Below are positions 21,855 to 40,216 of a DNA stretch of 64,000 nucleotides, in pieces. How positions within the stretch are numbered: the first letter of the stretch is position 1; every line of letters begins with the position of its first letter. This stretch comes from an uncultured Steroidobacteraceae bacterium (GTDB lineage: Bacteria > Pseudomonadota > Gammaproteobacteria > Steroidobacterales > Steroidobacteraceae). A model generated the notes under the pieces. The model worked only from the letters and a program-made list of their open reading frames with translations, was not told the DNA's origin and ran no database searches. Both the position numbers and the translations under genes were made by a program. The DNA is taken from contig CAZVIF010000011.1 in assembly GCA_964626745.1 (NCBI GenBank), positions 7,195 through 71,194 of the forward strand, written 5' to 3'.

Positions 21855-21899
21855 CGGCGTCGCCTCGACTGTCGGGGCACTACCTTATACTGCGTGGCC

Positions 21900-23788: not shown

Positions 23789-24610
23789 CTACTTCCCCAG
23801 CCACCCCGCATACAGCCCGGGCCGGCGGTGCTTCAGGAACAGCTGGCGCGCATGCGACGCGTCCGCCGCGGCCGGATCGACGTCGGCGTAGAGGATCTCC
23901 TCGGTGCCCTGCCCGGCGCGGGCAGTGACGCTGCCGTCCGGGGCGCAGACGAACGACTCGCCCGCGAAGTCCAGGCGATCCTCCCGGCCGACGCGGTTGC
24001 AGAGCGCGGTGTAGTAGCCGTTCTGGAACGCCGCGACGCGCATCTCGGCCTCGTACAGGCCCTCCGGCCATTCGCCGACCGCGCCGGCCTGCGGCACGAC
24101 GACGAGGTCCGCGCCTGCCACCGCGAGGGCGCGCATGTACTCGGGAAAGTGGCGGTCGTAACAGATGGCGACGCCGACGTTGCCGGCGCGCGTGCGATAT
24201 ACCGGCGCCCCCGTGTCGCCCGGCGTGTAGTAGCCCTGCTCGTGAAAGCAGGCGTACTCGGTGATGTGCACCATGCGCGTCACGCCGAGCAGCGCCCCGT
24301 CCGCGTCGATCACCGGCGAGGAATCGTAGGTCGCCTGCCCGTCGCGCTCGAACAGGTTCAGCACGACGACGATGCCGAGCGCACGCGCCCTTTCGCGAAA
24401 CGCGCTGACCAGCGGCCCGTCGAGCGGCTCGGCGAGGCTGCGTACGTCGCCGCTCGCCGGGTGCTGCGGATGAAACCACTCGAAGGCGAGCTCCGCATAA
24501 CAGGCGAGCTTCGCCCCGTGGCGGGCGGCGGTCTCGAGGTTCGCGAGGCCCCGGGCGATGTTCTCCCGCTTGTCGCGGCTCGCGCGCTGCTGGATGAGCG
24601 CGATCTTCAC
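23789..24610 (-). CDS. carbon-nitrogen hydrolase (nitrilase superfamily) protein, catalytic Lys position occupied by Met
   Basis: GTG 24610 overlaps the upstream stop (GTGA). The Glu (CYAELAF) and Cys (VAICYD) motifs are present. The RK-x-H motif reads TRMVH. Confidence 0.8.
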   Translation of the reverse strand: MKIALIQQRASRDKRENIARGLANLETAARHGAKLACYAELAFEWFHPQHPASGDVRSLAEPLDGPLVSAFRERARALGIVVVLNLFERDGQATYDSSPVIDADGALLGVTRMVHITEYACFHEQGYYTPGDTGAPVYRTRAGNVGVAICYDRHFPEYMRALAVAGADLVVVPQAGAVGEWPEGLYEAEMRVAAFQNGYYTALCNRVGREDRLDFAGESFVCAPDGSVTARAGQGTEEILYADVDPAAADASHARQLFLKHRRPGLYAGWLGK

Positions 24611-24987
24611 AGCGCGTCGACCAGGCGCTTCAGCTCGCCGTGGGCGCTCGCGAGCGCGCCGCTCGACTGCAGGAGCGGCCGATAGCGGCCGAGGAACGCC
24701 TCGTCGCGCGGTTCGCCGAGCCCGAAGACCAGGGCGCGCACGCGGTTCCCAGCCGCCGCGGTCGCGTTCGCCGTCAGTTCCTCGTCGCCGGCAAGCGACT
24801 CGTCGAGGTCGGCGATCAGCGTCGAGAGCGCGCGCAGCCAGGCCCATTCCGGATCCTTGATCAGCCGGTCGAGCAGTTCGAGCGCCGATCGTCCCGGCAG
24901 GTACGCGCCCTCCGCCTCCAGCACCTGCTTGTGCACGGCCTGCAGGGCGCGGCTGACCGCCTCGAGGTCCTGACGCAGCCGGCTCAA
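24607..24987 (-). CDS. hypothetical helical protein
   Basis: 126 aa with both ends overlapping neighbours (ATGA with msrB, GTGA with the CN hydrolase). No motif recognised. Confidence 0.55.
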
Positions 24988-27890: not shown

Positions 27891-28514
27891 ATGCCCAAGC
27901 TCGTCCTCACCTACTTCGACTTCGACGGCAGCCGCGGCGAGACCGCGCGCATCGCCATGCACCTCGGCGGGATTTCCTTCGAGGACCGCCGAATCTCCCA
28001 AAAGGACTGGCCGTCACACCGGGACCGCATGCCGTTCCAGCAACTGCCGGTGCTGGAGGTGGATGGCATGCCGATCGCGCAGTCGAACACGATCAACCGC
28101 TATGTCGGCCGGCTCGCGGGCCTGTATCCGCAGGACGCGCTGCAGGCGGCCCGCGTGGACGAGGTGATGGACGCGGTCGAGGATATCTCGACGAGGATCG
28201 GCCAGACGATGCGCATCGAGGACGCCGCCGCCAAGAAGGCGGCGCGCGAGGCGCTGGCGGCGGGACCCCTGCTGCGCTACCTGCAGCAGATCGAGACGCG
28301 GCTGAAGGCAGGCGGCGGCGAGTGGTTCGCCGAGAACCGCCTGACCGTCGCCGACCTCAAGTGCTACTACTGGGTGCGCTGGCTGAAGTCCGGGGCGCTC
28401 GACCACATCCCCGCCGACATCGTGGACAAGCATGCGCCGCTGCTCGCGAAGCACTTCGAGCGCGTGAAGGCCCAGCCGAAAATCGCGGCCTATTACGCGG
28501 CGCGGGCGAAGTAG
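27891..28514 (+). CDS. glutathione S-transferase
   Basis: 207 aa from ATG 27891. The pattern is GST N- and C-terminal domains (MPKLVLTYFDFDGSRGETARI..., QLPVLEVDG). Confidence 0.8.
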   Translation: MPKLVLTYFDFDGSRGETARIAMHLGGISFEDRRISQKDWPSHRDRMPFQQLPVLEVDGMPIAQSNTINRYVGRLAGLYPQDALQAARVDEVMDAVEDISTRIGQTMRIEDAAAKKAAREALAAGPLLRYLQQIETRLKAGGGEWFAENRLTVADLKCYYWVRWLKSGALDHIPADIVDKHAPLLAKHFERVKAQPKIAAYYAARAK

Positions 28515-28538
28515 CCCCGCTCCGCGAGCGCCGCTCGC

Positions 28539-30134
28539 TCAGCGCTCTCGCTTCGCGTCCCTGATCACCCGCGCCGCCGCGTTCCGCCCCGGCGCGCCGG
28601 ACACCGCGCCGCCCGGGTGCGCGCCGGATCCGCAGAGGTAGAGCCCCGGCACCGGCGTCGCGAACTGCGCCGCCTGCGGATGCGGCCGCAGGCCGAAGAT
28701 CTGGTCGAGGTCGTGGCGGCCGTGGAAGATGTCGCCCTCCGTCAGGCCGAACACGCGCTCGAGGTCGAGCGGCGTCAGGAACTGGCGGCCGACGATCAGC
28801 CGGCGCAGGTTCGGCATGAAACGCTCCAGTTCGGACACGACCCGCTCCGCTACGGAGGGTCCGACAGTGTCCCAGTCCTGCCCGTCCGCGAGCCGGTACG
28901 GGTAGTACTTCCCGATCAGGCTCATGACATGGTGCCCGGGCGGTGCAAGCGTGTCGTCGATCGCCGAGGGGATGCGGATGTCCAGGTACGGCACGTCGAT
29001 GATCCGCCCGGCGAGCGCGGCGCGATAATTCTCCTCGATCTGCGCGCGCATCGGGAAGATCGTGATCGAGCCGCCGCGGGCAAGCTCCGCCTCCGCGCCT
29101 GACAGCGCCGCGAACTCCGGCGCGCCCGACAGCGCGAGGTTCATGCGCAGCGTCGCATGGCCCATGCGCAGCCGCTCGATGCCGTCCGCGAACCCCTCCG
29201 GCAGGTGCTCGCGGCCCACGAACTTCAGGAACGTGCGCTTCGGGTCGGTGTTGGCGAGCAGGAACCGCGCGCGGAACACTTCGCCGTTCTCGATCCGCAC
29301 GCCGACTGCCCGGCCGCCCTCCACCAGGATGCGCTCGACCGGCGCGCCGGCGCGGTACTCGACGCCGTGCGCGCGGCCGGACGCCGCCATGGCCTGCGTG
29401 ATCGCGCCCATGCCGCCGCGGGCGTGGCCCCAGGCGCCGCGCTCGCCCTCGAACTCGCCGAGCGCGTGATGGAAGTACGGGATGGCCGAGCCCGGCGCGT
29501 CCAGGCTCGCGAAGTTGCCGGACACGCAGTGACCGGCCATCAGGTTGCGCATGGCTTCGCTCTCGAACCAGCGCTCGGTGATCTCGTTCGCGGGGGCCGT
29601 CATGAACTGCATGAAGAGGTGGCGATCCTCGAGCGCGAGGCCGCGGAACTCGCGCGCCGCGGGCCACAGCGCCAGCAGGTCCAGGACCCCGCCGCCCAGC
29701 GCGGGGGGCGGCTTCAGCCACTGCGCGCGGATCACCTCGCCGATGCGGTCGGTCGCGGCGTAGAAGCGCTGCATGGCATCGTAATCACGCGGCGAAAAGC
29801 GGCCCACGGCGGCGCGATCCTGCGCCTCGTCGCCGGTCATCAGCAGCGCGCGCCCGTCCTGGAAGAGACTGAGATGCGCGTGCATCTTCACCGGCTCATA
29901 GCCGTAGCGCTTGAGCTCCAGTTCCTCGATCACCTCCGGCCGCAGCAGGCTTACCGTGTAGGAGGCGACGGAGTTGCGATAGCCGGGATGGAACTCCTCG
30001 GTCACCGCGGCGCCGCCCAGCACGGGCCGGCGCTCGAGCACCACGGTCTTGAGGCCCGCGCGGCCGAGGTAGGCCGCAGCGGTGAGCCCGTTGTGGCCGC
30101 CGCCGATGACGATTGCGTCGTACGCTGCGCTCAT
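28539..30134 (-). CDS. NAD(P)/FAD-dependent oxidoreductase, phytoene desaturase (CrtI)-like family
   Basis: 531 aa. The dinucleotide motif is YDAIVIGGGHNGLTAAAYLGRAG...LERRPVLGG. It is the last gene of the minus-strand array. Confidence 0.85.
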   Translation of the reverse strand: MSAAYDAIVIGGGHNGLTAAAYLGRAGLKTVVLERRPVLGGAAVTEEFHPGYRNSVASYTVSLLRPEVIEELELKRYGYEPVKMHAHLSLFQDGRALLMTGDEAQDRAAVGRFSPRDYDAMQRFYAATDRIGEVIRAQWLKPPPALGGGVLDLLALWPAAREFRGLALEDRHLFMQFMTAPANEITERWFESEAMRNLMAGHCVSGNFASLDAPGSAIPYFHHALGEFEGERGAWGHARGGMGAITQAMAASGRAHGVEYRAGAPVERILVEGGRAVGVRIENGEVFRARFLLANTDPKRTFLKFVGREHLPEGFADGIERLRMGHATLRMNLALSGAPEFAALSGAEAELARGGSITIFPMRAQIEENYRAALAGRIIDVPYLDIRIPSAIDDTLAPPGHHVMSLIGKYYPYRLADGQDWDTVGPSVAERVVSELERFMPNLRRLIVGRQFLTPLDLERVFGLTEGDIFHGRHDLDQIFGLRPHPQAAQFATPVPGLYLCGSGAHPGGAVSGAPGRNAAARVIRDAKRER

Positions 30135-30145
30135 GGCGGGTCGGA

Positions 30146-30925
30146 TCAGCGCGGCCTGCGCGCCCGCGTGTATCCCTGCCGCAGCTCGCCCTTCTCGCAG
30201 ACGACGACCAGCGACCGCCAGTCCTCGATCATGTGTGCGGCCTGCGCTTCGCCGATCAGCGCGACGGCCTCGGGCCGGCCCGCTCCGCGCATCCTTTCAT
30301 ACTCGCGGCGCGACTCGCGCCGGTACCAGTCCGAGGCATCCTCCAGCGTGACGTCCGTGAATCCCGCGTCCTCGAGGTAGCGGCCGAGCTGCGCCAGCGT
30401 GATCAGGTTGTAGGTCAGCCCTTCCATCTTGAAGAAGTACCGCATGTCGTCGCTGATCGGCGCGTCGTTCTTCAGCCAGTCGTAGCAGGTCAGCATGCCG
30501 CCGGGCTTCAGCACCCTCAGGCACTCGGCGGCGATGCCGGCCTTGTCCTCGGTCTGCGTCAGCGCACCCGAGGTGAACACGAGGTCGAAGCTGCGGTCCG
30601 GAAAGGGCAGGTCGCCGAGCGTGACGGTCCGGAACTCCGTCTGCTCCGACAGCCCGAGTTCCGCGGCGCGGCGCGTCGCCCGCGCGATGAGCTGCGGCTC
30701 GAGGTCGATGCCGGTGACCTCCGCGCCGTACTTGCGCGCGAGCGCGAACGCCGGCCCGCCGATGCCGCAGCCGATGTCGAGCACGCGCCGGCCGGCCAGC
30801 TCGATCCCGGCGACCATCTTGTCGACGTTGCCCTCGCCGCCGGGCGCCATGTAGTCGCGTCCCCAGATCCACTCCAGGAACGCGACCATGGAATCGTGGT
30901 ACTCGCTGACGTGTGGCTCGCTCAC
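30146..30925 (-). CDS. class I SAM-dependent methyltransferase, phosphoethanolamine N-methyltransferase-like
   Basis: GTG 30925 overlaps the upstream stop (GTGA). SAM motif I is RVLDIGCGIGG. The domain is colinear with PEAMT methyltransferase domains (FLEWIWG...GG, LKPGG..YDW, LEDAGFTDV, GELRQGY). Confidence 0.75.
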   Translation of the reverse strand: MSEPHVSEYHDSMVAFLEWIWGRDYMAPGGEGNVDKMVAGIELAGRRVLDIGCGIGGPAFALARKYGAEVTGIDLEPQLIARATRRAAELGLSEQTEFRTVTLGDLPFPDRSFDLVFTSGALTQTEDKAGIAAECLRVLKPGGMLTCYDWLKNDAPISDDMRYFFKMEGLTYNLITLAQLGRYLEDAGFTDVTLEDASDWYRRESRREYERMRGAGRPEAVALIGEAQAAHMIEDWRSLVVVCEKGELRQGYTRARRPR

Positions 30926-32274
30926 GCGACCGCCCGGACCGCGGCGAGCGCCGCGTCGACCTCGCGCTCGTCGTTGACCAGGCTCGGCGCCAGGCGCGCC
31001 TTCGAGATCTTGTACGGCGAGGTCGAGGCCAGCACCTTGCGCTGATGCAGCGCATGCACCGTCTCGCCCGCCTTCTGCCCGTCCACCTCGAAGCAGGTGA
31101 TGCCGGCCGACAGCGCGGGAACCATGGGCGTGAGCACCTTCACGCCCGGGATCTTCGCGAGGCCTTCCTTGAGCTGGCTGTTGAGCGCGGCGATGCGGCC
31201 CGCGATGCGTTCGCGGCCGATGCGCTCGTGGAAATCGAAAGCCTCGCCCATCGCCCACTGGTGCTCGAAGGCCTTGAAGCCGCCGGGCGAGATCCAGGCG
31301 ATGCTGTCGGGCGCGTTCGGCGGGCGCTGGTCCTCCCACGCGGCGTAGGGCTCGAGCGCGTAGAAAGTCGGGATCGTGGGACTCAGCAGGCCCCAGTTCT
31401 TCTGCGGCACCCAGACGATGCCCGTGCCGCGCGGCGCGAAGATCCACTTGTGCGTGCCGGCAGCCACGAAGTCGGCGCCGAGGTCCGCGATGCGCTCGGC
31501 CTGGTTGCCGAAGCCGTGCACGGCGTCGAGCACGACGAGGATGCGGTCCCTGTCGCCGCGGCCCGCGTTGACCTCGGCGACGGCCTGCGTCAGCGCGCGC
31601 GCCGGGATCTTCACGCCGCTGCTCGAGTGCACCCAGGTGATGCCGACGACGCGCGTCTTCGGCCCGATGGCGCGCTTGAGATTCGCGACCATCTCGTCCG
31701 CCGTGGCGCTCGCCGAATCCGCGTACAGCGGCTCGCGCCGCCAGGACGCGCCGGACTTCTCCGCCGCCAGGCGGATCGCCTCGTGATGCACGTAGTGGTC
31801 GTGCGTCGTGCACAGGATCTCGTCGCCGGGCTTCAGGGCTAGGCCCATATAAATGAGTGCGAGCCCCTGGGTCGTGCTGTCGGTGAGCGCGATCTCCTCG
31901 GGCTTGCCGCCCGCGTAGGTCGCGGCCTTGCGCTGCGCCTGCAGCGGCAGCGGCTCGTCGCGCGACTCGGCGCCGAGGAACACGTCGAAGCCCATGCCGT
32001 GCTCGACCGTCGTGAACGGGTTCCTGTCGAGCAGGCCCCGATGCCGCTCGATCGCCTCCCGCACCGGCTTCGGGTGCGAGACGATGTAGAACTGCGAGAA
32101 GTGCAGCCACTCCGGCGTCAGCAGGTCGAACTGCGCCTTCACCGCGGCCCAGTCGGAGGCGGCGTGGACGGCAGGCGTCGCGGCGGCGGCTTCGGCCGCA
32201 GCCGCGCGCGATACCGCGCCACCGACCAGCGACAGGCCTATGGTCGCGACGAATTCCCGGCGGTTCAGGCTCAT
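30922..32274 (-). CDS. Tat-signal class V PLP-dependent aminotransferase/lyase-like enzyme
   Basis: ATG 32274 has a GGGAGA SD, followed by twin-arginine leader MSLNRREFVATIGLSLVGGAVSRAAAAEA. The PLP-lysine motif GTHKW is present. Confidence 0.8.
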   Translation of the reverse strand: MSLNRREFVATIGLSLVGGAVSRAAAAEAAAATPAVHAASDWAAVKAQFDLLTPEWLHFSQFYIVSHPKPVREAIERHRGLLDRNPFTTVEHGMGFDVFLGAESRDEPLPLQAQRKAATYAGGKPEEIALTDSTTQGLALIYMGLALKPGDEILCTTHDHYVHHEAIRLAAEKSGASWRREPLYADSASATADEMVANLKRAIGPKTRVVGITWVHSSSGVKIPARALTQAVAEVNAGRGDRDRILVVLDAVHGFGNQAERIADLGADFVAAGTHKWIFAPRGTGIVWVPQKNWGLLSPTIPTFYALEPYAAWEDQRPPNAPDSIAWISPGGFKAFEHQWAMGEAFDFHERIGRERIAGRIAALNSQLKEGLAKIPGVKVLTPMVPALSAGITCFEVDGQKAGETVHALHQRKVLASTSPYKISKARLAPSLVNDEREVDAALAAVRAVA

Positions 32275-32306
32275 GAGGCGGTCTCCCTGGTGAAACGCGT
32301 TTCTGT

Positions 32307-34667
32307 CTACACCCGCGCCAGCGCGCGGTCGAGTCCCTCGAGCAGCATCGCTGCGTGCTCCGGCGTGAACACCAGCGGCGGCCGGATCTTGACGACGTTG
32401 TTGAAAGCGCCCGTGCGCCCGAGCAGGAAACCGTCGTCGCGCAGCAGGTTCATGATGCGGTCGGCCTCCGCTTCGGCCGGGGCGCGCGTCGCGTGGTCGC
32501 GCACGATCTCGAGTCCCCAGAACAGGCCCTTGCCGCGCACGTCCGCGACCAGCGGGTACCTGCCGGCGAGCTTCGCGAGCCCCGCCTCCAGCACCTGGCC
32601 CGCCGCGATGACGTTCTGCTGGATGCCCTCGCGCTCGAGCACGTCGAGCACCGCCAGACCCACCGCGGCGGACACCGGGTTGCCGCCGAAGGTGTTGAAG
32701 TACGAGAACTTCTCCGCGAACTTCGCCGCGATCGCCGGCGTCGTGATCACCGCGCCGATCGGGTGACCATCTCCGATCGGTTTCCCCAGGGCGACAATGT
32801 CCGGAACAACGTCGGAGTAGCGGAACGCCCACATCTCGTCGCCGGTGCGGTAGAAGCCCGACTGCACCTCGTCGGCGATGAACAGGCCGCCCGCCGCGCG
32901 GATCGCTCGGACGGTGTACTCGAGATAACCTGGTGGCGGCAGGATCGTGCCGTTCGAGTCGAAGATGATGTCGCACAGCCACGCCGCCGCACCCTGCCCG
33001 CGCTGCTGCAGCTTCGCGATCGCCGTGTCGATGTGGGCCGCGTACTTCAGTCCGAGGTCCGGCGTGCCGTAGCGGTACTCGCCGCGGTAGCCGTTCGGCG
33101 CCGGCACGGTCGCGATCCACTCGGGCTGCTCCGACGCCGGGTACATGCAGGTCGAGGCCGCGCCGACCACGTTCGAGTTGCCGTGGTAGGAGTCGTCGGA
33201 GACGATCACGCCCTCGTGGCCGCTGACCACGCGCGCGATGCGGATCGCGAGGTCGTTGGCTTCCGTGCCCGTGCAGACGAAATAGCAGACGCGCAGGTCT
33301 CCCGGGAACGTGGCGGCCAGGCGCTCGGCGTAGCGAACGACGTTGTCGTGGAGGTAGCGGGTGTGCGTGTTGAGCGTCGCCGCCTGTCGCGCAAGCGCGC
33401 CGACCACGTGCGGGTGGCAGTGGCCCACCGAGGCGACGTTGTTGTAGCAGTCGAGGTAGCGGCGGCCCTCGGCGTCGAAGAGCCAGGCCCCCTCGCCGCG
33501 CACCAGGTGCACCGGGCGGTCGTAGAACAGCCGATAGCTAGGTCCCAGCGCCCGCTCGCGCCGCTCGCGCAGCCGCTCGAGGTCGACGCCCGACGGGGCG
33601 CGGCCGACGCGGCCGCAGGCGGCTCGGTAGCGCTCGTGCACCTCGTCGCGGTCGAACGCGAGAAACCGCGTCAGCGCGCGCACGATGTCCGGACGCTCCT
33701 GCGTCAGCCAGGCGGCCGGCTGCTCGGTCGCGTGGATGCGGAAGTCGTACAGCGCAAGCGCGGTCGCAAGCCGCAGCAGCGTGAGGTCGTGCAGCACCTC
33801 GAGCTCGTCGTCCATGAGCGGCACGACGGCGTTCCACGCCTCCACCTGCGCCACCGCGTTCTCCAGCGACATCTCGCCGTGCCGCGCGAAGCTCGCAAGC
33901 GTCACCGCAAGGTCCTGGACCAGCGGCGCATGCACCATGTCGCCGAAGTCGATGACGCCGACGATCTCGTCGCCGTCCGTTCCCGCGCGCAGCAGGTTGT
34001 CGCCGTGCCCATCGCTGTGCACGACCTGCGCGCGCAGGCCGGGCAGCCTCGGCAGCACCTCGCTTCCCGCGCGCCCGAGGAAGCCCGCCAGGAGCGCCTT
34101 CGCGTCGTCCGCAACCCAGGCCTGGATGCCGGGCTCCAGCAGCAGGCCGCGCTGCAGGTCCCAGGCCACGAAATGCCGCGCGTGCGGATGGAAGAGGCCG
34201 CGCAGCCCGTGCGCGAGCCGCGCCTGGAAGGCCGCGACGCTGCGCAGCGTGGCGGTCGTGAGGGGCTTGCCTTTCGACAGCGGAATGCCCGGCAGCCAGC
34301 TCAGCAGCCGCACCATGTGTCGCGTGCCGTCGGCGGCCGCGATCCACTCGCGGTCGTTGCCCGCCTGTGAGGCGATCACGCGCGGCACCGGCAGCTCCGG
34401 CGCCTGGCGCTCCAGGTGCCGGAGCGCCGCGACCTGGAAGTCCACGGCGCCCTCGCTCTCGCCCGCCGCCGAAACCTTCAGCACGAAGCTCGCGCCGTCC
34501 GCGGTCGTCACGCGGTGGTTCTGGTCACGCTCGCCGTCGAGGGGCGTGGACTGGCCCTGGACACCCCAGCGTTCGCGCGCGAACGCGGCCAGCCGCTCTA
34601 GGGGAATCTGCGGGGGATTGAAGTTCAGGTCGACGGCGCTGAACCGCGGCTGCAGGGCGACATTCAT
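32307..34667 (-). CDS. fusion protein: APH/hydroxylysine-kinase-like phosphotransferase + class III PLP enzyme of the phospholyase (ETNPPL/PHYKPL-like) type
   Basis: 786 aa. The N-terminal half has kinase motifs VVHSDGHGDNLL (HxDxxxxN) and IDFGD. The C-terminal half has YHGNS, DEVQSGFYRTG and GKPIGDGHPIG (PLP Lys). Confidence 0.85.
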   Translation of the reverse strand: MNVALQPRFSAVDLNFNPPQIPLERLAAFARERWGVQGQSTPLDGERDQNHRVTTADGASFVLKVSAAGESEGAVDFQVAALRHLERQAPELPVPRVIASQAGNDREWIAAADGTRHMVRLLSWLPGIPLSKGKPLTTATLRSVAAFQARLAHGLRGLFHPHARHFVAWDLQRGLLLEPGIQAWVADDAKALLAGFLGRAGSEVLPRLPGLRAQVVHSDGHGDNLLRAGTDGDEIVGVIDFGDMVHAPLVQDLAVTLASFARHGEMSLENAVAQVEAWNAVVPLMDDELEVLHDLTLLRLATALALYDFRIHATEQPAAWLTQERPDIVRALTRFLAFDRDEVHERYRAACGRVGRAPSGVDLERLRERRERALGPSYRLFYDRPVHLVRGEGAWLFDAEGRRYLDCYNNVASVGHCHPHVVGALARQAATLNTHTRYLHDNVVRYAERLAATFPGDLRVCYFVCTGTEANDLAIRIARVVSGHEGVIVSDDSYHGNSNVVGAASTCMYPASEQPEWIATVPAPNGYRGEYRYGTPDLGLKYAAHIDTAIAKLQQRGQGAAAWLCDIIFDSNGTILPPPGYLEYTVRAIRAAGGLFIADEVQSGFYRTGDEMWAFRYSDVVPDIVALGKPIGDGHPIGAVITTPAIAAKFAEKFSYFNTFGGNPVSAAVGLAVLDVLEREGIQQNVIAAGQVLEAGLAKLAGRYPLVADVRGKGLFWGLEIVRDHATRAPAEAEADRIMNLLRDDGFLLGRTGAFNNVVKIRPPLVFTPEHAAMLLEGLDRALARV

Positions 34668-34675
34668 GCGCTGGG

Positions 34676-34681
34676 ATTATA
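34676..34681 (-). promoter_or_regulatory. perfect TATAAT hexamer 8 nt upstream of the ATG at 34667 (possible internal promoter, leaderless start)
   Basis: The minus strand reads TGA-C-TATAAT-CCCAGCGC-ATG between the FHA gene stop and the fusion gene start. No Shine-Dalgarno is visible. Confidence 0.2.
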
Positions 34682-34682
34682 G

Positions 34683-35663
34683 TCAGTCGCCCGCATCCGC
34701 GAGCGGCGCCTCGAGCAGCGAGCGCTGGCGCTCGCGCCCGGCTTCGCGCCGCAGCCGCTCGACCTCCGCGAGGTAGTCGGCAATGTCCCGGTTCGGCACC
34801 ACGCGCGCGACCCCGATCCGCACGTCCGGGCCGAGGTCCACGCGGTTGACGTCGCTCGTGGTCATGCCGAGCGTCGCGACCCAGGCGACGGCGCTGATGA
34901 GGACCGTCCCCGCGCCCGCGAGCGCGAGCGAGATCCGGCGTCCGTACGCGGTCGCCTCGCGCAGGTGCAGGTACAGCGCGGCCAGCGCCGTCGCGCCGAC
35001 GACGGCGATGCCGACCCGGGCGAGCACGGACCATTGCGCCGTGTAGGCCACGAGCCCCGCCACCCAGTAGCCCCAGGCGCAGAAAGCGACGCCGATGGCG
35101 GCGATCGCGAGGTGGATCCGCACCTCCCACTTGCCCTTGTTGAGCTTCGACAGCAGGCACCAGCCGGCGGTCCAGACGGCGAGCACGCCGAGCGCGACGA
35201 GCGCACCCGCCAGCAGGCTCGGAAGCAGCGATGACGGCGCGCCGAGCCACTGCTGCAAGCCCGCGAAGGCGAGGCAGGCCGCGACGCCCGCCGCCGCGAG
35301 CCAGCTGCGGTGCCGGCGCACGAACTCGCGCCGGAACACGCGCTCGGGACCGAGCGGCGTGTGCCGCGTGCGCACGTGCAGCCTCGTGCGACCGACGATG
35401 ATCTCGCCCTGCGCGATGACCGCGCCGCCGTCCGCCGGCACGCGGCGGCCGTCGACCCGGGTGCCGTTCTTCGTGCCGAGATCCTCAACGCGCACGCGCC
35501 CGTCCTCGAGCAGCGTCAGCCGCGCGTGCCGCGGCGCGGCGTGCTCGTCGTCCACCACGATCTCGCAGCCGAGGTCCCGGCCAATGCAGCACTCGGCGCC
35601 CGCCCCTGCAAGGCGCTGCTGCAGGATCGGGTGGCCCTGCGGCCCGATCTGCTCGATGAGCAT
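34683..35663 (-). CDS. FHA domain-containing polytopic membrane protein
   Basis: ATG 35663 overlaps the protease stop (ATGA). The N-terminal FHA domain (CCIGRDLGCEIVVDDEHAAPRHARL...GTKNGTRVDG) is followed by about five TM helices. Confidence 0.8.
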   Translation of the reverse strand: MLIEQIGPQGHPILQQRLAGAGAECCIGRDLGCEIVVDDEHAAPRHARLTLLEDGRVRVEDLGTKNGTRVDGRRVPADGGAVIAQGEIIVGRTRLHVRTRHTPLGPERVFRREFVRRHRSWLAAAGVAACLAFAGLQQWLGAPSSLLPSLLAGALVALGVLAVWTAGWCLLSKLNKGKWEVRIHLAIAAIGVAFCAWGYWVAGLVAYTAQWSVLARVGIAVVGATALAALYLHLREATAYGRRISLALAGAGTVLISAVAWVATLGMTTSDVNRVDLGPDVRIGVARVVPNRDIADYLAEVERLRREAGRERQRSLLEAPLADAGD

Positions 35664-37084
35664 CACGGCTTCCACTGCAGGCCTCCCAGGTAGCGCTTCA
35701 GGATCCGCTCGCCGGTGTCGTAGCCGACGCCCTGCAGCGCGAGCCGGCTCACCAGCGCCTCGCTCGCGTCGTCGATGCTGACGACCGTCACGTCGAAGTC
35801 GTAGAGGTCGCCGAACAGCCGGTACTGGCGCAGGCAGGTCGAAATGCGCGCGTCGAAGCCGTCGAGCGAGACCAGGCCGTCGTGGCAGGCGAACGGCGCG
35901 ACGTGGGCCGGCGAACCGGCGCGGTGCGGCGCCGCGGCCGTGCGATTCACGATCCGCTCGAACTGCAGCGGATGGAGCCCCGACGGCTGCAGCACGCGGT
36001 GCTGCACCGTGAAGCCGGCGACATACACGCCGCCCTGCACCAGCAGCCGCGACGGCATCGCGCAGCTCACGGTCTCGACGCGCACGCGCGGGTGGCCGCC
36101 GCGCTCGTCGAACGTGCTGCATTCCAGGTGCCGGGAGAGCTGCGCCGGCAGCACGAAATGCCGCACGGTCTGCGTGCCGGCCGATTCCGGCTGCGCCTCC
36201 AGCACCTCGGATTCGTAGGCGAGCACCTGACCCGTCACGAGCTGGCGCAGCTGCAGCGCGCTGAAGCGCTGGTCCAGCGGTTCCCGCGCGCGCGCCAGCA
36301 GCGGCGGGACGTGCTTGGCCGGCACGACGAAGCCGACCAGCTGCCGCCCGAGGACGACGGACACGTTGACGCCGTACACGCGGCCGCGCCGGTCGAGCGC
36401 CGGTCCGCCCGACATGCCGCCGTTGATCGCGCCGGTGTAGTGGATGCGCTGCTCGATGCTGTTCTCGACCAGCCCGTTGGCGACGCCCTCGGTGATGGTC
36501 AGGCCGAGGTTCAGCGGGAAACCGATCGACCAGGCACGCTCGCCCTGGGCGGGAATCTCGGTGCGAAGCGTCAGCGGCGGCAGCGCGAGGTCGTCGTCCG
36601 GAGCGACGATCGCGAGGTCGTTGCGCACGTCGATGGCGAGGACGCGCAGCGGCCCCGTGCGGCCGTCGCTCGCCAGGTACTCCAGCCGGTACTGCCGCGG
36701 GTACAACACGGCCTGGGCGACGACGTGGTAGTTGGTGACGATGCGGCGGCCGTCGTCCACGGCGAAGCCGCTGCCATGGAAGGCGCTCGACGCGGAGGCA
36801 TCGAAGTAGCCGCGGATCTGCACGACGGACCCGCGCGCGGCGTCAAGCCGGTCCTTCGCCTCGTCCGACAGCTCCTGGGCCTCGATGGCGGCCTCGATGG
36901 CGGCCGCGTCGACGGCCGTCTCGTCCGCGGGGGCCTCATCGCCAGCGTCACCAGCCGCCTCGTCGGGCGCCTGTTCGGCGGGCGCCTCTGCAGGGGCCGT
37001 GGCCTCTTCCTGCGGTTCAGCGGCTCCGGTCGAGGATCCGCACAGCAGCAGGATGGCGATGAATCGAGCGGTGTTAAGGCGCAA
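35663..37084 (-). CDS. trypsin-like (S1) serine protease lipoprotein with uncharacterised C-terminal domain
   Basis: Catalytic triad motifs TNYHVV, RNDLAIV and GMSGGP are present. The probable TTG start at 37084 gives MRLNTARFIAILLLCGSS (lipobox). The ATG at 37180 would overlap the upstream gene by about 100 nt, so the start is uncertain. Confidence 0.7.
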   Translation of the reverse strand: MRLNTARFIAILLLCGSSTGAAEPQEEATAPAEAPAEQAPDEAAGDAGDEAPADETAVDAAAIEAAIEAQELSDEAKDRLDAARGSVVQIRGYFDASASSAFHGSGFAVDDGRRIVTNYHVVAQAVLYPRQYRLEYLASDGRTGPLRVLAIDVRNDLAIVAPDDDLALPPLTLRTEIPAQGERAWSIGFPLNLGLTITEGVANGLVENSIEQRIHYTGAINGGMSGGPALDRRGRVYGVNVSVVLGRQLVGFVVPAKHVPPLLARAREPLDQRFSALQLRQLVTGQVLAYESEVLEAQPESAGTQTVRHFVLPAQLSRHLECSTFDERGGHPRVRVETVSCAMPSRLLVQGGVYVAGFTVQHRVLQPSGLHPLQFERIVNRTAAAPHRAGSPAHVAPFACHDGLVSLDGFDARISTCLRQYRLFGDLYDFDVTVVSIDDASEALVSRLALQGVGYDTGERILKRYLGGLQWKP

Positions 37085-38252
37085 TGCCGGCAATGATCCT
37101 GTCGTAGAAAAGCTTGAATGCGTACTCGGACTCCACGTCCTCGTAGACGTTCCAGCCGGTGAATACCGCGATGATGCCAAGGTCCGGCACGATCAGGCCG
37201 TGTTGTCCGCCCCAGCCCCAGGTGCCGACCATGGCGGGCCGGCCGTCGCTCCCGTCGTTGAAAACCCACCATTGGTAACCGTAGCCGACGTCATCATCCG
37301 GATCGTCGGGATTCGTGTCCTTCACGTGCGGCTGGATCGAGCGCTCGACCCAGTCAGCCGGTATGACCTGCCTGCCGTTCCACTCGCCCTTGCGCTCGTA
37401 CAGCAGGGCGAGTCGCGCCAGATCGCGCGATCGGAGGTACAACCCGCCTGCCGCGTCGCGATAGCCCTCCGGTGCGGACTTCCAGTGGTAGTCGCGGATG
37501 CCGATGGGGTGAAAGAGCAGCTCCTCCGCGTACCGGTCGAGCGGCTTTCCGGTCGCGTTGGAGACGATCTCCGACATGAGCTGCGTGTTCGTGCTGTTGT
37601 AGTTGTAGGTCGTGCCCTGCGGGGCCACGAGCGGCTTCCGCAGCAGGTAACCCACCCAGTCGTCCGTCCGCTCCACGCGTATCCCGTCGTTCCTCGGATC
37701 CCAGTAGGACACCTGGTCTTCCAGCCATTCGAAGCCCGGCCGCATCGTCAGGATGTTCTCGAGCGTGATCGCCGCCTTCGCCGGATCCGCGATCTTCCGA
37801 TGCGGCAGCAGCGCGCCGAGCGTCGCTTCCGTGCCCGGCAGGTCGCCCCGGGCGATGGCGATGCCCACCAGCGCCGACATGACGCTCTTGGTGGTCGACT
37901 GCATCGTGTGCAGGTCGGTGCCCTGGTAGTACGGGTGCCAGGTGGCGTCGTAGTAGTTCCAGGGCCCCGACTCGCCGGTCATCCGGCCCGCGTTGATCGC
38001 CTTGTAATCGCGCGGATAGCGGGCTTCGAACACGATGCGCCCGTGACGGGCGATCAGCATCGAGTCGACGTAACCGTGCTTGCCGCTGCGCAGCTCGGCG
38101 TCGAGCGCCAGAATGGCTTCCTCGTCGAGCCCCTCGCGGGCAGGCGTCGAAACCTCCCAGTGCTCATCGGGCCAGGAGGGCTCCGCGGCGATCGCCAGGC
38201 AAGCCGGCAGGGCAAGCAGGCAGAACGATGCGGACAGAACGCGACCGGGCAT
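37074..38252 (-). CDS. beta-lactamase-fold serine hydrolase (exported)
   Basis: 392 aa with a strong AGGAGG SD and signal MPGRVLSASFCLLALPACLAIAA. The SxxK motif STTK is present. It is the first gene of the seven-gene minus-strand array. Confidence 0.85.
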   Translation of the reverse strand: MPGRVLSASFCLLALPACLAIAAEPSWPDEHWEVSTPAREGLDEEAILALDAELRSGKHGYVDSMLIARHGRIVFEARYPRDYKAINAGRMTGESGPWNYYDATWHPYYQGTDLHTMQSTTKSVMSALVGIAIARGDLPGTEATLGALLPHRKIADPAKAAITLENILTMRPGFEWLEDQVSYWDPRNDGIRVERTDDWVGYLLRKPLVAPQGTTYNYNSTNTQLMSEIVSNATGKPLDRYAEELLFHPIGIRDYHWKSAPEGYRDAAGGLYLRSRDLARLALLYERKGEWNGRQVIPADWVERSIQPHVKDTNPDDPDDDVGYGYQWWVFNDGSDGRPAMVGTWGWGGQHGLIVPDLGIIAVFTGWNVYEDVESEYAFKLFYDRIIAGIAP

Positions 38253-38317
38253 TTCCGTATTCCTCCTGCCGACCGGACACCGGTGTATCGTTCAGCTTAC
38301 ACGCCTGCGTAACGCTC

Positions 38318-39322
38318 ATGACGACGCACACCCTGACCCAGGCCATGCGACTGCCGGCGCCCGGCGCGGCGCTGCGCCTGCAGGAGGTCGCGCTGCGGCC
38401 GCCTGGACCTCACGAGATCGTGCTGAAGGTCCGCGCCTGCGGCGTGTGCCGCACGGACCTGCACCTGGTGGATGGCGAGCTCGCGCACGCGCGCTATCCG
38501 GTGACGCCGGGGCACGAAATCGTCGGCGAGGTGCTGGCCGCGGGCCGCGAGGTCGTCGGGATCCGGCCGGGCGATCGCGTCGGCGTGCCCTGGCTCGGCT
38601 GGACCTGCGGCGCCTGCGACTACTGCCGCTCCGGCCGCGAAAACCTCTGCGACGCCGCCGAGTTCACGGGTGCAACACGCGACGGCGGCTTTGCCCGCCA
38701 TGTCATCGCGGATGCGCGCTATGCCCTCGCCATTCCGCCCGCCTACGACGATGCCGCGGCGGCGCCGCTGCTCTGTGCCGGGCTGATCGGTTACCGCGCC
38801 TATCGGCTCGCCGGCGACGGGCCCTGCCTCGGGATCTACGGCTTCGGCGCCGCGGCCCACTTGATCGCGCAGGTCGCCGTGGCCGCGAAACGCCGGGTCT
38901 TTGCCTTCACGCGGCCCGGGGATGCCGCAGCACAGGCGTTCGCCCGTTCGCTGGGCGCCAGTTGGGCCGGTCCGTCGGACGCCCAGCCGCCCGAACCCCT
39001 GGACGCGGCCCTGCTCTTCGCGCCGGTGGGCGAGCTGGTGCCCGCCGCGCTCCGCGCCGTGCGCAAGGGCGGCCGCGTCGTCTGCGCCGGCATCCACATG
39101 AGCGACATTCCGGGATTCCCGTACTCCATTCTCTGGGGCGAGCGATCGCTGTGCTCCGTGGCCAACCTCACGCGCGAGGACGGGCGCGAGTTCATGCGCG
39201 TCGCGGCGCAAGTCCGCCTGCAGCCGTCGGTCGAGGCTTTCCCGCTCGGCGAGGCGAATGCGGCGCTCGAGCGGTTGCGGTCCGGAACTTTGCAGGGCGC
39301 TGCGGTTCTCATGCCTGACTAG
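38318..39322 (+). CDS. zinc-dependent alcohol dehydrogenase family protein
   Basis: Catalytic zinc motifs GVCRTDLH and GHEIVGEV, and structural zinc motif CGACDYCRSGRENLC. ATG 38345 is an alternative start. Confidence 0.9.
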   Translation: MTTHTLTQAMRLPAPGAALRLQEVALRPPGPHEIVLKVRACGVCRTDLHLVDGELAHARYPVTPGHEIVGEVLAAGREVVGIRPGDRVGVPWLGWTCGACDYCRSGRENLCDAAEFTGATRDGGFARHVIADARYALAIPPAYDDAAAAPLLCAGLIGYRAYRLAGDGPCLGIYGFGAAAHLIAQVAVAAKRRVFAFTRPGDAAAQAFARSLGASWAGPSDAQPPEPLDAALLFAPVGELVPAALRAVRKGGRVVCAGIHMSDIPGFPYSILWGERSLCSVANLTREDGREFMRVAAQVRLQPSVEAFPLGEANAALERLRSGTLQGAAVLMPD

Positions 39323-39631: not shown

Positions 39632-40216
39632 TCAGCGGACTTCGAGAAATCGGAACAAGGGTTCGTAGTCGCGCCCGTCCGCGGCCCGCAACGCGGCGAG
39701 GTACTCGTCGCGAGGCTCGCCCGCCGCAACGAGACTGCCATCGCCCCAACGGAATCGCTCTTCGCCGTGCGCGTGCAGGAGCAGATCCGCGTACGTGCGC
39801 GCGACACGGCCATTGCCATTCGGGAAGGGATGAATGTGCACGAGGCGATGGTGAAGCCGCGCGGCGATCTCGCGTATCGGATAGCTGTGGGCTTCCACTT
39901 GAGCCTCAACGTCCAGGAGCAGTTGGCGGACAGCTTCCGGGATCCGCTCCGGCGCAATTCCGATGTTCTTCTCGGTCGTTCTCCACTCGCCCGCCCACCT
40001 CCAGGTGTCGCCGAACATCTTCCCGTGAAGCCGTTTCAGGTAGCTCTCAGTCAGCAGTTCCTTGCGGCGGCGGCCGAACGCCCATCGCTCACCGTCGACG
40101 ATGTTGGCGTGCTCCCATTCATTGAGCTCGGGCTGCGTCGTGATGTGTGCCGGGATGAGGGCGCGCGCTTCATCCGGGTCAACCGGCGTCGCGCCGGCTG
40201 GAGTCGGAGAGATCAT
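39632..40216 (-). CDS. Fic family protein (mobile mystery protein B type)
   Basis: 194 aa with Fic motif HIHPFPNGNGRVAR, i.e. HxFx(D/E)GNGRxxR with Asn at the D/E position. Its ATG overlaps the stop of the upstream HTH gene (ATGA). Confidence 0.9.
   Translation of the reverse strand: MISPTPAGATPVDPDEARALIPAHITTQPELNEWEHANIVDGERWAFGRRRKELLTESYLKRLHGKMFGDTWRWAGEWRTTEKNIGIAPERIPEAVRQLLLDVEAQVEAHSYPIREIAARLHHRLVHIHPFPNGNGRVARTYADLLLHAHGEERFRWGDGSLVAAGEPRDEYLAALRAADGRDYEPLFRFLEVR

What the first reader, a model, noticed from the sequence alone, without database searches (positions are those of the whole stretch)
28539..34667. Candidate phospho-amino-alcohol pathway: kinase-phospholyase fusion + Tat-exported class V PLP enzyme + PEAMT-like methyltransferase + CrtI-like flavoprotein
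The 786-aa first gene fuses two halves. One is an APH/hydroxylysine-kinase-type phosphotransferase (HxDxxxxN, IDFGD). The other is a class III PLP domain whose PLP-lysine motif GKPIGDGHPIG matches the GKPMGNGHP signature of the animal O-phospho-amino-alcohol phospholyases (ETNPPL, PHYKPL), not ordinary transaminases. In animals, and in the mycobacterial aminopropanol system, kinase and phospholyase act in sequence: ROH-amine to phospho-ester to carbonyl + NH3 + Pi. Two genes downstream, overlapping by GTGA, is a methyltransferase colinear with phosphoethanolamine N-methyltransferase domains, which also act on a phospho-amino-alcohol. Between them lies a class V PLP enzyme with a clear Tat leader; PLP enzymes are rarely exported. 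The string ends with a CrtI-like FAD oxidoreductase. Gaps are 32, -4 and 11 nt. I do not know a described pathway combining these four activities. Both the substrate and the logic are open: degradation, or synthesis of a methylated phospho-base such as phosphocholine. Candidate substrates include ethanolamine, aminopropanol, hydroxylysine, or a sphingoid or lipid head-group amine.
Basis: partly seen in the sequence, partly recalled or inferred. Interest (0 to 1): 0.7.

Follow-up and report, generated by a model that had tools for sequence, protein, structure and literature searches.

The report
Four adjacent enzyme genes, not one pathway
The four genes exist and their families were named correctly, but related genomes show they are a chance, lineage-specific juxtaposition and not a conserved pathway; only the first gene, a fused kinase and phosphate-eliminating enzyme, is a self-contained two-step unit of a kind already known.

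Summary
All four minus-strand ORFs, their motifs and the 32/-4/+11 nt junctions are confirmed. The family calls hold. G1 is an APH-fold kinase fused to a class III PLP domain that groups with the solved phospholyases (ETNPPL, 5G4I) at about twice the score of any transaminase. G2 is a full-length homologue of PvdN, the known Tat-exported periplasmic PLP enzyme. G3 is closest to PEAMT domains. G4 is CrtI/CrtO-like.

The pathway reading fails its own test. In 80 G1-centred loci, none has G2 or G3 nearby. In 79 G3-centred loci the neighbours are highly variable. In the 95%-identical relative the string is broken twice, by a toxin-antitoxin pair and by six unrelated genes. A G4 orthologue appears only in that relative.

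G3 keeps the catalytic Tyr and the SAM-binding site. It has lost the catalytic His (now Gln) and every phosphate ligand (Arg179 is Glu), so it is unlikely to methylate a phospho-base.

G1-G2 proximity is conserved, but only inside a Steroidobacteraceae clade. The string is also co-directional with two upstream genes (a protease and an FHA-domain protein).

Verdict: an ordinary juxtaposition of members of known families, of low interest, with two modest leads.

The parts
32307..34667 (-). G1: 786-aa fusion of an N-terminal APH-fold kinase (aa ~1-350) and a C-terminal phospholyase-type class III PLP domain (aa ~360-786)
   Evidence: Pfam APH 95 bits plus Aminotran_3 233 bits. PDB best hits are ETNPPL 6TOR at 396 bits and phospholyase 5G4I at 360 bits, against 198 bits for the next hit. 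Motifs at aa 217-224, 239-243 and 628-638.
30922..32274 (-). G2: 450-aa Tat-exported PvdN-family class V PLP enzyme
   Evidence: NCBIfam NF051467 PvdN scores 384 bits, below its cut-off of 650. PDB 5I90 PvdN gives E = 2e-90 and aligns over residues 4-444, including the twin-arginine leader and the AGTHKW lysine. R5, R6 and F8 are invariant in 8 homologues.
30146..30925 (-). G3: 259-aa class I SAM methyltransferase with a PEAMT-like fold but no phosphate-binding site
   Evidence: Best PDB hits are the Arabidopsis PEAMT/PMEAMT C-terminal domain at 130 bits and PfPMT at 85 bits. Residue mapping: Tyr19 is kept; His132->Gln124, Asp128->Gly120, Tyr27->Leu17, Tyr160->Trp150, Arg179->Glu168, Tyr181->Leu170, Lys247->Leu239.
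28539..30134 (-). G4: 531-aa CrtI/CrtO-like FAD oxidoreductase
   Evidence: NCBIfam CrtO NF045689 scores 260 bits (cut-off 1000) and crtI_fam 124 bits (cut-off 238). PDB 4DGK phytoene dehydrogenase gives E = 1e-22.
34683..35663 (-). FHA-domain membrane protein gene, co-directional, ending 15 nt upstream of G1
   Evidence: Pfam FHA and Yop-YscD_cpl. The inner start gives 326 aa, as in L008. The Trypsin-FHA-G1 order recurs in L008 and L171.
35663..37180 (-). Trypsin_2-type serine protease gene, co-directional, overlapping the FHA gene start
   Evidence: Pfam Trypsin_2 at 96 bits. The same pair occurs in L008, L171 and L175.

Best explanation
The region is a lineage-specific juxtaposition of genes that work independently. 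It is not a four-step pathway.

G1 is a self-contained two-step catabolic enzyme. Its kinase half O-phosphorylates an amino alcohol (a hydroxy-amine) with ATP. Its PLP half then eliminates phosphate from the phospho-ester, giving an aldehyde or ketone plus NH3 and Pi, as ETNPPL and PHYKPL do. The domain identity is shown here. The chemistry and the substrate are inferred.

G2 is a periplasmic PvdN-family PLP enzyme, exported folded through Tat. By analogy it performs an oxidative or decarboxylative modification of an amino-acid moiety outside the cytoplasm (inferred). G1 followed by G2 is the ancestral local order in a Steroidobacteraceae clade.

G3 is a SAM methyltransferase that shares the PEAMT fold and catalytic Tyr but has no phosphate pocket. 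It most likely methylates a non-phosphorylated, neutral or cationic small molecule (inferred).

G4 is a CrtI/CrtO-like flavoprotein of unknown substrate.

The G3-G4 block lies next to G1-G2 only in the window's immediate lineage. The tight 32/-4/+11 nt spacing reflects local compaction, so co-transcription is possible in this genome. It does not reflect a conserved functional unit.
For: G1 stands alone:
- In 80 G1-centred metagenome loci (35-90% identity), none has G2, none has G3, and 2 have a G4-like gene.
- Clustering of neighbours finds no conserved partner, except a separate kinase gene where the two halves are unfused.
- Homologues at 69%, 58%, 48% and 82% identity sit in four different contexts.

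G3 stands alone:
- In 79 genome loci the commonest neighbour family occurs in only 7.
- Relatives at 81-88% identity (L010, L011, L013, L014) have none of G1, G2 or G4 within 10 kb.

The 95%-identical relative L008 reads G1 - [PemK toxin-antitoxin, opposite strand] - G2 - [PEMT, hypothetical, MT, His kinase, LytTR regulator, hypothetical] - G3 - G4.

A G4 orthologue (>=60% identity) occurs only in L008.

G1 and G2 are close in L012 and L170-L175. They are separated there by a cupin gene, by the protease and FHA genes, or by a 6.6-kb Mrp operon on the other strand. G2 is followed by a convergent GT4 gene, just as the window would read without G3-G4-GST-beta-lactamase.

Residue test on G3. Phospholyase grouping of G1. 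PvdN homology of G2.
Against: In this genome the four genes, plus the two upstream, are co-directional with no room for promoters or terminators. No terminator-like site was found on their strand. They may therefore be co-transcribed, which can reflect function.

G3 lies beside G1/G2 in three different arrangements: the window, L008, and L012 (MT->G1->G2).

Weak recurrent links exist elsewhere between G3-type MTs, CrtI-like flavoproteins and kinase/phospholyase genes (L021, L052, L097, L143).

G2-centred loci carry G1 in 3 of 4 unbiased look-ups. A G1-G2 functional link is therefore not excluded.

No biochemical data exist for any of the four proteins.
Confidence: 0.7

Rival explanations
1. 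One reading: G1-G4 form one pathway on a phospho-amino-alcohol. Steps would be kinase, phospholyase, N-methylation of the phospho-base by G3, a periplasmic PLP step, and a flavin oxidation. The pathway would be either degradative or would make phosphocholine.
For: Tight co-directional spacing. G1 is in the phospholyase group. G3's nearest solved relatives are PEAMTs. IMG labels G3 homologues 'phosphoethanolamine N-methyltransferase'.
Against: The gene set is not conserved. G3 lacks His132 and all phosphate ligands, and has Glu in place of Arg179. G2 is periplasmic while the phospho-intermediates are cytoplasmic. A lyase that destroys the phospho-base and an MT that would build on it compete for the same intermediate.
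Confidence: 0.06
2. G1 and G2 form a functional two-compartment pair in Steroidobacteraceae. The periplasmic PvdN-like enzyme would convert an external amino-acid-type compound into an amino alcohol or amine. That product would be imported and degraded by the kinase-phospholyase. G3 and G4 would be unrelated passengers.
For: G1 lies within about 7 kb of G2 in the window, L008, L012 and L170-L175. This holds despite inversions and insertions between them. Three of four unbiased G2 look-ups have G1 next door.
Against: Three of those look-ups (L171-L173) were chosen because the contigs also carried G1 or G3, which biases the count. G1 relatives at 82-90% identity (L009, L089, L091) and all of the roughly 75 more distant ones lack G2. 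Genes on the opposite strand and a whole Mrp operon are tolerated between the two genes. Unrelated genes (DUF899, MsrB/MsrA, GT4, and a 630-aa NAD_binding_8 protein) recur in the same neighbourhoods. This points to regional synteny by descent.
Confidence: 0.2
3. G3, G4 and G1 belong to a loosely linked metabolism of amines or N-methylated amino alcohols. This metabolism appears in fuller form in other Gammaproteobacteria: MT + two CrtI-like flavoproteins + GcvT-type folate protein + DAO oxidase + kinase + phospholyase. The window would hold a compact remnant or variant of it.
For: L015, L021, L036 and L060 carry the MT beside CrtIb-CrtIa-GcvT. L021 adds an unfused APH kinase plus a phospholyase-type gene. 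L052 has phospholyase-type AT - CrtI-like - MT. L097 and L143 have a G1-type gene beside a CrtI-like gene.
Against: Only about 7 of 79 MT loci and 2 of 80 G1 loci show this. G4 is only 31-38% identical to those flavoproteins. The window has no GcvT homologue. The role of a methyltransferase in a demethylating island is unclear.
Confidence: 0.12

Closest known systems
Animal O-phospho-amino-alcohol phospholyases ETNPPL (AGXT2L1) and PHYKPL (AGXT2L2), their kinase partner HYKK (AGPHD1), and the bacterial phospholyase A1RDF1 (PDB 5G4I)
   Same: G1's C-terminal half aligns end to end with 6TOR and 5G4I, at 396 and 360 bits. It shares YLDCxNNVxxVGHCHP, DEVQxGFGRxG, GKPxGxGHP and FNTxGGNPVS. The logic of a kinase followed by a lyase is the same. 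From my own memory of Veiga-da-Cunha et al. 2012 (J Biol Chem 287:7246), bacterial kinase-lyase fusions were the clue that identified HYKK. PMC12138971 cites that paper as a gene-fusion example. PMC8154272 cites it as the only documented lyases of the class III subgroup.
   Different: In G1 the two activities are in one 786-aa polypeptide. The substrate is unknown. The gene contexts (agmatine deiminase, ornithine cyclodeaminase, deoxyhypusine-synthase-like genes) hint at amine or polyamine metabolism rather than phospholipid head groups.
NCBIfam PRK06148 / PRK06149 (about 1000-aa APH + class III aminotransferase fusion proteins)
   Same: Both halves of G1 match the two ends of these models: N-terminal half 224 bits, whole protein 760 and 588 bits.
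   Different: G1 lacks the roughly 240-residue middle region of the models (profile positions about 342-582). It scores below both curated cut-offs (1128 and 973).
PvdN, the periplasmic pyoverdine-tailoring PLP enzyme of Pseudomonas (PDB 5I90, 5HH9)
   Same: Full-length colinearity, including the twin-arginine leader and the PLP-lysine motif. PvdN is a Tat-exported fold-type I PLP enzyme. Its proposed reaction is a decarboxylation followed by an oxygenase step (PMC7497351).
   Different: The score of 384 bits is below the equivalog cut-off of 650. No pyoverdine or NRPS genes were seen among the window genes scanned. The natural substrate must therefore differ.
Phosphoethanolamine N-methyltransferases (PfPMT 3UJ6; Arabidopsis PMT1/PMT2 5WP4/5WP5; nematode PMT-2)
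   Same: Same fold and colinearity (aa 8-251 against 245-484 of the plant enzymes). The SAM-binding Asp residues and the catalytic Tyr19 equivalent are invariant.
   Different: The catalytic His132 is Gln and Asp128 is Gly. The phosphate ligands Tyr27, Tyr160, Arg179, Tyr181 and Lys247 are Leu, Trp, Glu, Leu and Leu/Met across the bacterial family.
CrtI/CrtO phytoene-desaturase-type flavoproteins
   Same: N-terminal FAD-binding fold and full-length similarity to CrtO and CrtI models and to PDB 4DGK.
   Different: Scores are far below the family cut-offs: 260 against 1000, and 124 against 238. There are no carotenoid genes nearby.

Membership tests
Phospholyase subgroup of class III PLP enzymes (ETNPPL/PHYKPL/5G4I) | Closer in sequence to characterised phospholyases than to any transaminase, decarboxylase or racemase of the class | tested here: met
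   396 and 360 bits to 6TOR and 5G4I, against 198 bits or less for all others.
Phospholyase subgroup of class III PLP enzymes (ETNPPL/PHYKPL/5G4I) | PLP-lysine motif GKPxGxGHP | tested here: met
   GKPIGDGHPIG at aa 628-638, aligned to GKPMGNGHP of both solved enzymes.
Phospholyase subgroup of class III PLP enzymes (ETNPPL/PHYKPL/5G4I) | Catalyses 1,2-elimination of phosphate without an amino acceptor | not testable with these tools
   Needs an enzyme assay.
Phospholyase subgroup of class III PLP enzymes (ETNPPL/PHYKPL/5G4I) | Genetic coupling to an APH-fold kinase (fusion or adjacent gene) | tested here: met
   Fused in G1 and in most of the 80 related loci. A separate kinase gene lies directly upstream in 12 loci.
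Hydroxylysine-kinase-type (HYKK/AGPHD1) APH kinases | APH fold with the catalytic HxDxxxxN loop and the Mg-binding xDFGD motif | tested here: met
   PF01636 at 95 bits; HSDGHGDN and IDFGD present.
Hydroxylysine-kinase-type (HYKK/AGPHD1) APH kinases | Orthology with animal HYKK rather than other APH kinases | not tested
   No HYKK sequence or structure was available in the tools. The only PDB hit of the N-terminal half is homoserine kinase 2PPQ at 23 bits.
Homoserine kinase type II / aminoglycoside phosphotransferases | Score above the curated family cut-off | tested here: not met
   PRK05231 45.6 bits against cut-off 271. TIGR00938 32 against 256. APH(3') 29 against 205.
NCBIfam PRK06148 / PRK06149 fusion proteins | Whole-protein score above the cut-off, with full model coverage | tested here: not met
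   760 against 1128, and 588 against 973. The middle of the model is not matched.
PvdN (NF051467 equivalog) | Score above the equivalog cut-off | tested here: not met
   384 bits against 650.
PvdN (NF051467 equivalog) | Twin-arginine signal peptide and conserved PLP lysine | tested here: met
   NRREFV aligns with DRRTFL of PvdN, and AGTHKW is conserved. The RR motif is invariant in homologues.
PvdN (NF051467 equivalog) | Located in a pyoverdine biosynthesis or maturation context | tested here: not met
   No pvd or NRPS genes among the window genes scanned between about 13.7 and 51.5 kb, nor in L169-L175.
Phosphoethanolamine N-methyltransferase (PEAMT/PMT) | Class I SAM fold colinear with a PMT catalytic domain, with the SAM-binding Asp residues | tested here: met
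   (the equivalents of Asp61 and Asp85 are kept).
Phosphoethanolamine N-methyltransferase (PEAMT/PMT) | Catalytic Tyr-His dyad (PfPMT Tyr19/His132; PvPMT Y16/H129, PMC4357015) | tested here: not met
   Tyr is kept (Tyr9). His is replaced by Gln124, which is invariant in close homologues.
Phosphoethanolamine N-methyltransferase (PEAMT/PMT) | Phosphate-binding residues: PfPMT Tyr27, Tyr160, Arg179 and Tyr181 (PMC4357015 equivalents), plus Lys247 from memory | tested here: not met
   They are Leu17, Trp150, Glu168, Leu170 and Leu239. The same pattern holds in homologues down to 37% identity.
CrtI family (TIGR02734) / CrtO ketolase (NF045689) | Score above the family cut-off | tested here: not met
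   124 against 238, and 260 against 1000.
Conserved gene cluster / operon encoding one pathway | The same gene set recurs together in related and in distant genomes | tested here: not met

The most novel reading that the evidence does not exclude
Several lineages show a loose but repeated neighbourhood. Its members are a PEAMT-fold methyltransferase without a phosphate pocket, CrtI/CrtO-like flavoproteins (elsewhere in tandem with a GcvT-type folate protein), and a kinase plus phospholyase. The lineages include Steroidobacteraceae, Woeseiaceae, a Lysobacterales MAG and an Alteromonadaceae MAG. This could mark an undescribed metabolism of N-methylated or other substituted amino alcohols that ends in phosphorylation and phosphate elimination. 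The window's compact string would be one reduced instance of it, possibly with the periplasmic PvdN-like enzyme supplying the substrate.
Probability: 0.12. Interest if true: 0.55.

Novelty: new member of a known kind. Interest (0 to 1): 0.22.

Why it matters
The result removes a tempting but unsupported pathway prediction, and it leaves three concrete points.

1. Bacterial kinase-phospholyase fusions are abundant and mostly stand alone. They have no known substrates, so a biochemical screen on one of them, such as G1, would annotate thousands of genes.

2. A whole bacterial family is labelled 'phosphoethanolamine N-methyltransferase' in one public annotation source. It lacks the phosphate-binding residues, so the label is probably wrong.

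3. PvdN-type periplasmic PLP enzymes exist outside pyoverdine producers, where they are conserved next to the kinase-phospholyase in one clade. This hints that PLP chemistry in the periplasm is broader than pyoverdine tailoring.

Tried and rejected
- My first neighbour clustering chose ORFs greedily by length. It picked spurious antisense ORFs in these 70% G+C sequences. For example, the window's G3 was swallowed by a 654-aa overlapping ORF. I redid it with a GC3-based filter and relied on tblastn of the four proteins.
- Promoter and terminator scan of 28000-38500: no promoter-like site, and one terminator-like site on the wrong strand, below the shuffle expectation. Uninformative.
- Rfam scan of the whole window: no hit, so no riboswitch clue to a ligand.
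- I tried to read Veiga-da-Cunha et al. 2012 by DOI and by PMC id. It is not held. What I say about it comes from memory and from citing papers.
- Literature searches found nothing usable on bacterial PEAMT, on the 5G4I phospholyase paper, or on the mycobacterial aminopropanol kinase/phospholyase system.
- The PYROXD2 literature was looked at as a lead for G4 and not pursued.
- I considered that the kinase half might be a homoserine kinase. The scores are far below the cut-offs.
- I considered that G2 might mark a siderophore cluster. No such genes are nearby.

Full report
**Observation**

The window has about 70% G+C. Named hits suggest it comes from a Steroidobacteraceae-like gammaproteobacterium.
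- G1, 32307-34667, 786 aa.
- G2, 30922-32274, 450 aa.
- G3, 30146-30925, 259 aa, GTG start.
- G4, 28539-30134, 531 aa.

I read the junctions directly. There are 32 nt between G1 and G2, with a GGGAGA ribosome-binding site. G2 and G3 overlap in GTGA. There are 11 nt between G3 and G4. All quoted motifs are present.

One thing was missed. An FHA-domain gene (34683-35663) ends 15 nt upstream of G1, and a Trypsin_2 protease gene overlaps the FHA start. Judged by spacing alone, the co-directional string has six genes, two of which have no plausible role in small-molecule metabolism. Tight spacing here is therefore a property of the locus and not a signature of the four enzymes.

**What each gene is**

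*G1.* It carries PF01636 (APH) and PF00202 (class III aminotransferase).
- The C-terminal half aligns end to end with human ethanolamine-phosphate phospho-lyase (6TOR, 396 bits) and the bacterial phospholyase 5G4I (360 bits). The next best solved proteins, such as dialkylglycine decarboxylase, racemases and transaminases, reach at most 198 bits.
- The lysine motif GKPIGDGHP matches GKPMGNGHP in both phospholyases.
- The N-terminal half has the catalytic HxDxxxxN and IDFGD motifs. It scores far below the cut-offs for homoserine kinase (45.6 against 271) and APH(3') (29 against 205). It matches the N-terminal part of the NCBIfam fusion-protein models PRK06148 and PRK06149.
- G1 lacks the roughly 240-residue middle part of those models and stays below their cut-offs.

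The lyase chemistry itself is inferred.

*G2.* It is a full-length homologue of PvdN: NF051467 at 384 bits against a cut-off of 650, and PDB 5I90 at E = 2e-90. The alignment includes the twin-arginine leader (NRREFV against DRRTFL) and the AGTHKW PLP-lysine motif. The RR motif is invariant in homologues. PvdN is the known Tat-exported periplasmic PLP enzyme of pyoverdine maturation. Its proposed reaction is a decarboxylation followed by an oxygenase step (PMC7497351). The export of G2 therefore has a direct precedent. No pyoverdine or NRPS genes are nearby.

*G3.* Its best solved relatives are indeed PEAMT catalytic domains: Arabidopsis 5WP5 and 5WP4 at about 130 bits, and Plasmodium PfPMT at 85 bits. 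One annotation source names its homologues 'phosphoethanolamine N-methyltransferase'.

To test this, I aligned the family with PfPMT. I had first verified that my copy of the PfPMT sequence is identical to 3UJ6. I then mapped the residues described for the Plasmodium enzymes (PMC4357015). In PfPMT numbering these are the catalytic dyad Tyr19/His132 and the phosphate ligands Tyr27, Tyr160, Arg179 and Tyr181. I recalled Lys247 and Asp128 from memory.

Tyr19 and the SAM-binding Asp residues are conserved. The other positions are replaced:

| PfPMT residue | Role | G3 residue |
|---|---|---|
| His132 | catalytic dyad | Gln124 |
| Asp128 | recalled from memory | Gly120 |
| Tyr27 | phosphate ligand | Leu17 |
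| Tyr160 | phosphate ligand | Trp150 |
| Arg179 | phosphate ligand | Glu168 |
| Tyr181 | phosphate ligand | Leu170 |
| Lys247 | phosphate ligand (from memory) | Leu239 |

The same pattern holds in homologues down to 37% identity. G3 therefore has the PEAMT fold but no phosphate pocket. An acidic residue replaces the key arginine. G3 is unlikely to act on a phospho-base.

*G4.* It is a CrtI/CrtO-like flavoprotein, far below the family cut-offs.

**Do the four genes belong together?**

*G1-centred evidence.*
- Homologues at 69%, 58% and 48% identity sit in three unrelated contexts: agmatine deiminase plus CN-hydrolase; coproporphyrinogen oxidase with a glyoxalase; and an overlapping PALP enzyme gene.
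- An 82% relative has yet another context.
- A scan of metagenome contigs gave 80 loci at 35-90% identity. None carries G2 or G3, and two carry a distant G4-like gene.
- Neighbour clustering finds no conserved partner, other than a separate kinase gene in 12 loci where the two halves are unfused.

*G3-centred evidence.*
- 79 loci from named genomes show highly variable surroundings. The commonest neighbour family, CrtI-like, occurs in 7.
- Relatives at 81-88% identity have none of G1, G2 or G4 within 10 kb.

*The closest relative.* L008 is 93-97% identical for all four proteins. Its order is protease - FHA - G1 - [PemK toxin-antitoxin, opposite strand] - G2 - [PEMT, hypothetical, MT, histidine kinase, LytTR regulator, hypothetical] - G3 - G4 - GST. 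A G4 orthologue was seen nowhere else.

*G2-centred evidence*. G1 followed by G2 is a common local order in this clade. L172 and L175 have a 57-nt gap, and L174 has 320 nt. Other arrangements occur too:

| Locus | Arrangement |
|---|---|
| L170 | G2 - cupin(-) - G1 |
| L171 | G2 - protease - FHA - G1 |
| L173 | G1 - 6.6-kb Mrp operon(-) - G2 |
| L169 | G2 without G1 |

In L172, L173 and L175, G2 is followed by a convergent GT4 gene. The same GT4 gene lies in the window beyond G3-G4-GST-beta-lactamase. The simplest history is an ancestral G1-G2|GT4 arrangement into which the G3-G4 block came only in the lineage of the window and L008.

Unrelated genes recur in these neighbourhoods: DUF899, MsrB/MsrA, a 630-aa NAD_binding_8 protein, the Lhr helicase, and the protease-FHA pair. 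This is what regional synteny with frequent local rearrangement looks like.

**What remains possible**

In this genome the genes may well be co-transcribed (one search found nothing to the contrary). Three observations keep weaker links alive:
- G2-centred look-ups chosen only for contig length carry G1 in 3 of 4 cases.
- G3 lies next to G1/G2 in three different arrangements: the window, L008, and L012 (MT->G1->G2).
- In other lineages a G3-type MT sits beside two tandem CrtI-like genes and a GcvT-type folate protein (L015, L021, L036, L060). L021 also has an unfused kinase plus a phospholyase-type gene. L052 has phospholyase-type AT - CrtI-like - MT. L097 and L143 have a G1-type gene beside a CrtI-like gene.

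These cases are few: about 7 of 79 and 2 of 80. G4 is only 31-38% identical to those flavoproteins, and the window has no GcvT homologue. I treat this as a lead and not as support for the pathway.

**Mechanism I commit to**

- G1 is a stand-alone two-step enzyme: ATP-dependent O-phosphorylation of an amino alcohol, then PLP-dependent elimination of phosphate to a carbonyl compound, NH3 and Pi. The family placement is shown; the chemistry and substrate are inferred. Contexts elsewhere hint at amine or polyamine-derived substrates.
- G2 is a periplasmic PvdN-type PLP enzyme with an unknown non-pyoverdine substrate.
- G3 methylates a non-phosphorylated small molecule.
- G4 is an orphan flavoprotein.

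**Comparison with the known, and novelty**

- Kinase-phospholyase coupling, including bacterial fusions, has been known since the identification of HYKK, AGXT2L1 and AGXT2L2. This rests on my memory of Veiga-da-Cunha et al. 2012, which is cited as the gene-fusion example in PMC12138971 and as the only class III lyases in PMC8154272.
- PvdN is a described exported PLP enzyme.
- PEAMT and CrtI are described families, and G3 and G4 fail their defining tests.

What is present is therefore a set of uncharacterised members of known kinds, placed side by side. Interest is low (0.22). The useful by-products are a probable mis-annotation of a bacterial 'PEAMT' family, a clade-level G1-PvdN-like adjacency, and an unexplained MT/CrtI-like/GcvT island in other genomes.

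Noticed in passing
L021:5933-19646; L015:693-6563; L036:520-10788; L060:1-10768; L052:4360-8469: In several marine or sediment Gammaproteobacteria MAGs, the G3-type methyltransferase sits beside a conserved module. The module has two tandem CrtI/CrtO-like flavoproteins and a GcvT-family folate protein, whose best NCBIfam match is the C-terminal part of TMAO demethylase. It often comes with a pipecolate-oxidase-like DAO enzyme, an AraC/SnoaL regulator and a TonB receptor. L021 adds an unfused APH kinase plus a phospholyase-type PLP gene. It looks like an undescribed amine or N-demethylation island.
   Followed up: partly
window 34683-37180 (minus strand): A Trypsin_2 protease gene and an FHA-domain membrane protein gene overlap each other. 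They run straight into G1 with a 15-nt gap. The same protease-FHA pair precedes G1 in L008 and L171 and occurs nearby in L175. Its function and its relation to G1 are unknown.
   Followed up: partly
L008:12379-12949 and L012:7584-8297: A PemK-type toxin-antitoxin pair on the opposite strand is inserted exactly between G1 and G2 in the 95% relative. A homologous spacer is present in L012. The window has only 32 nt there.
   Followed up: partly
L175:8369-9943: The gene upstream of G2 is called as a 524-aa protein with only the class III PLP domain. The kinase half of the G1 homologue seems to be missing or disrupted in this MAG.
   Followed up: no
G3 homologues P0121-P0240: One public source names many members of this bacterial family 'phosphoethanolamine N-methyltransferase', while others are named UbiE. 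The residue test suggests the PEAMT label is an over-annotation.
   Followed up: yes
L001:2231-6632 (also L002, L003); window 23789-24847: A 69%-identical G1 homologue lies directly downstream of agmatine deiminase (PAD_porph) and a CN-hydrolase (N-carbamoylputrescine-amidase-like). The window also has a CN-hydrolase gene about 7.5 kb downstream of G1's 3' end (32307). This may hint at polyamine-related substrates.
   Followed up: no
L006:8001-11551 (and L007): In a 48%-identical relative, the stop of the kinase-phospholyase gene overlaps the start of a PALP-family (PF00291) PLP enzyme gene. This is a different candidate partner from any in the window.
   Followed up: no
L097:472-7506; L143:366-4744: G1-type genes lie next to a CrtI-like flavoprotein. 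In L097 the neighbours also include a Rieske oxygenase and a deoxyhypusine-synthase-like gene. In L143 there is a DAO oxidase.
   Followed up: partly
window 21627-23786 (plus strand): A protein of about 630-720 aa has only an N-terminal-third NAD_binding_8/DAO signature and no specific family. It recurs in the same neighbourhood in L170-L172, L174 and L175. It is a synteny marker of unknown function.
   Followed up: no
window 39632-40216 and 40821-45062: A Fic/DOC-family gene and a 1413-aa Lhr-type helicase gene flank the region. The Lhr gene is syntenic in L008, L089 and L171.
   Followed up: no
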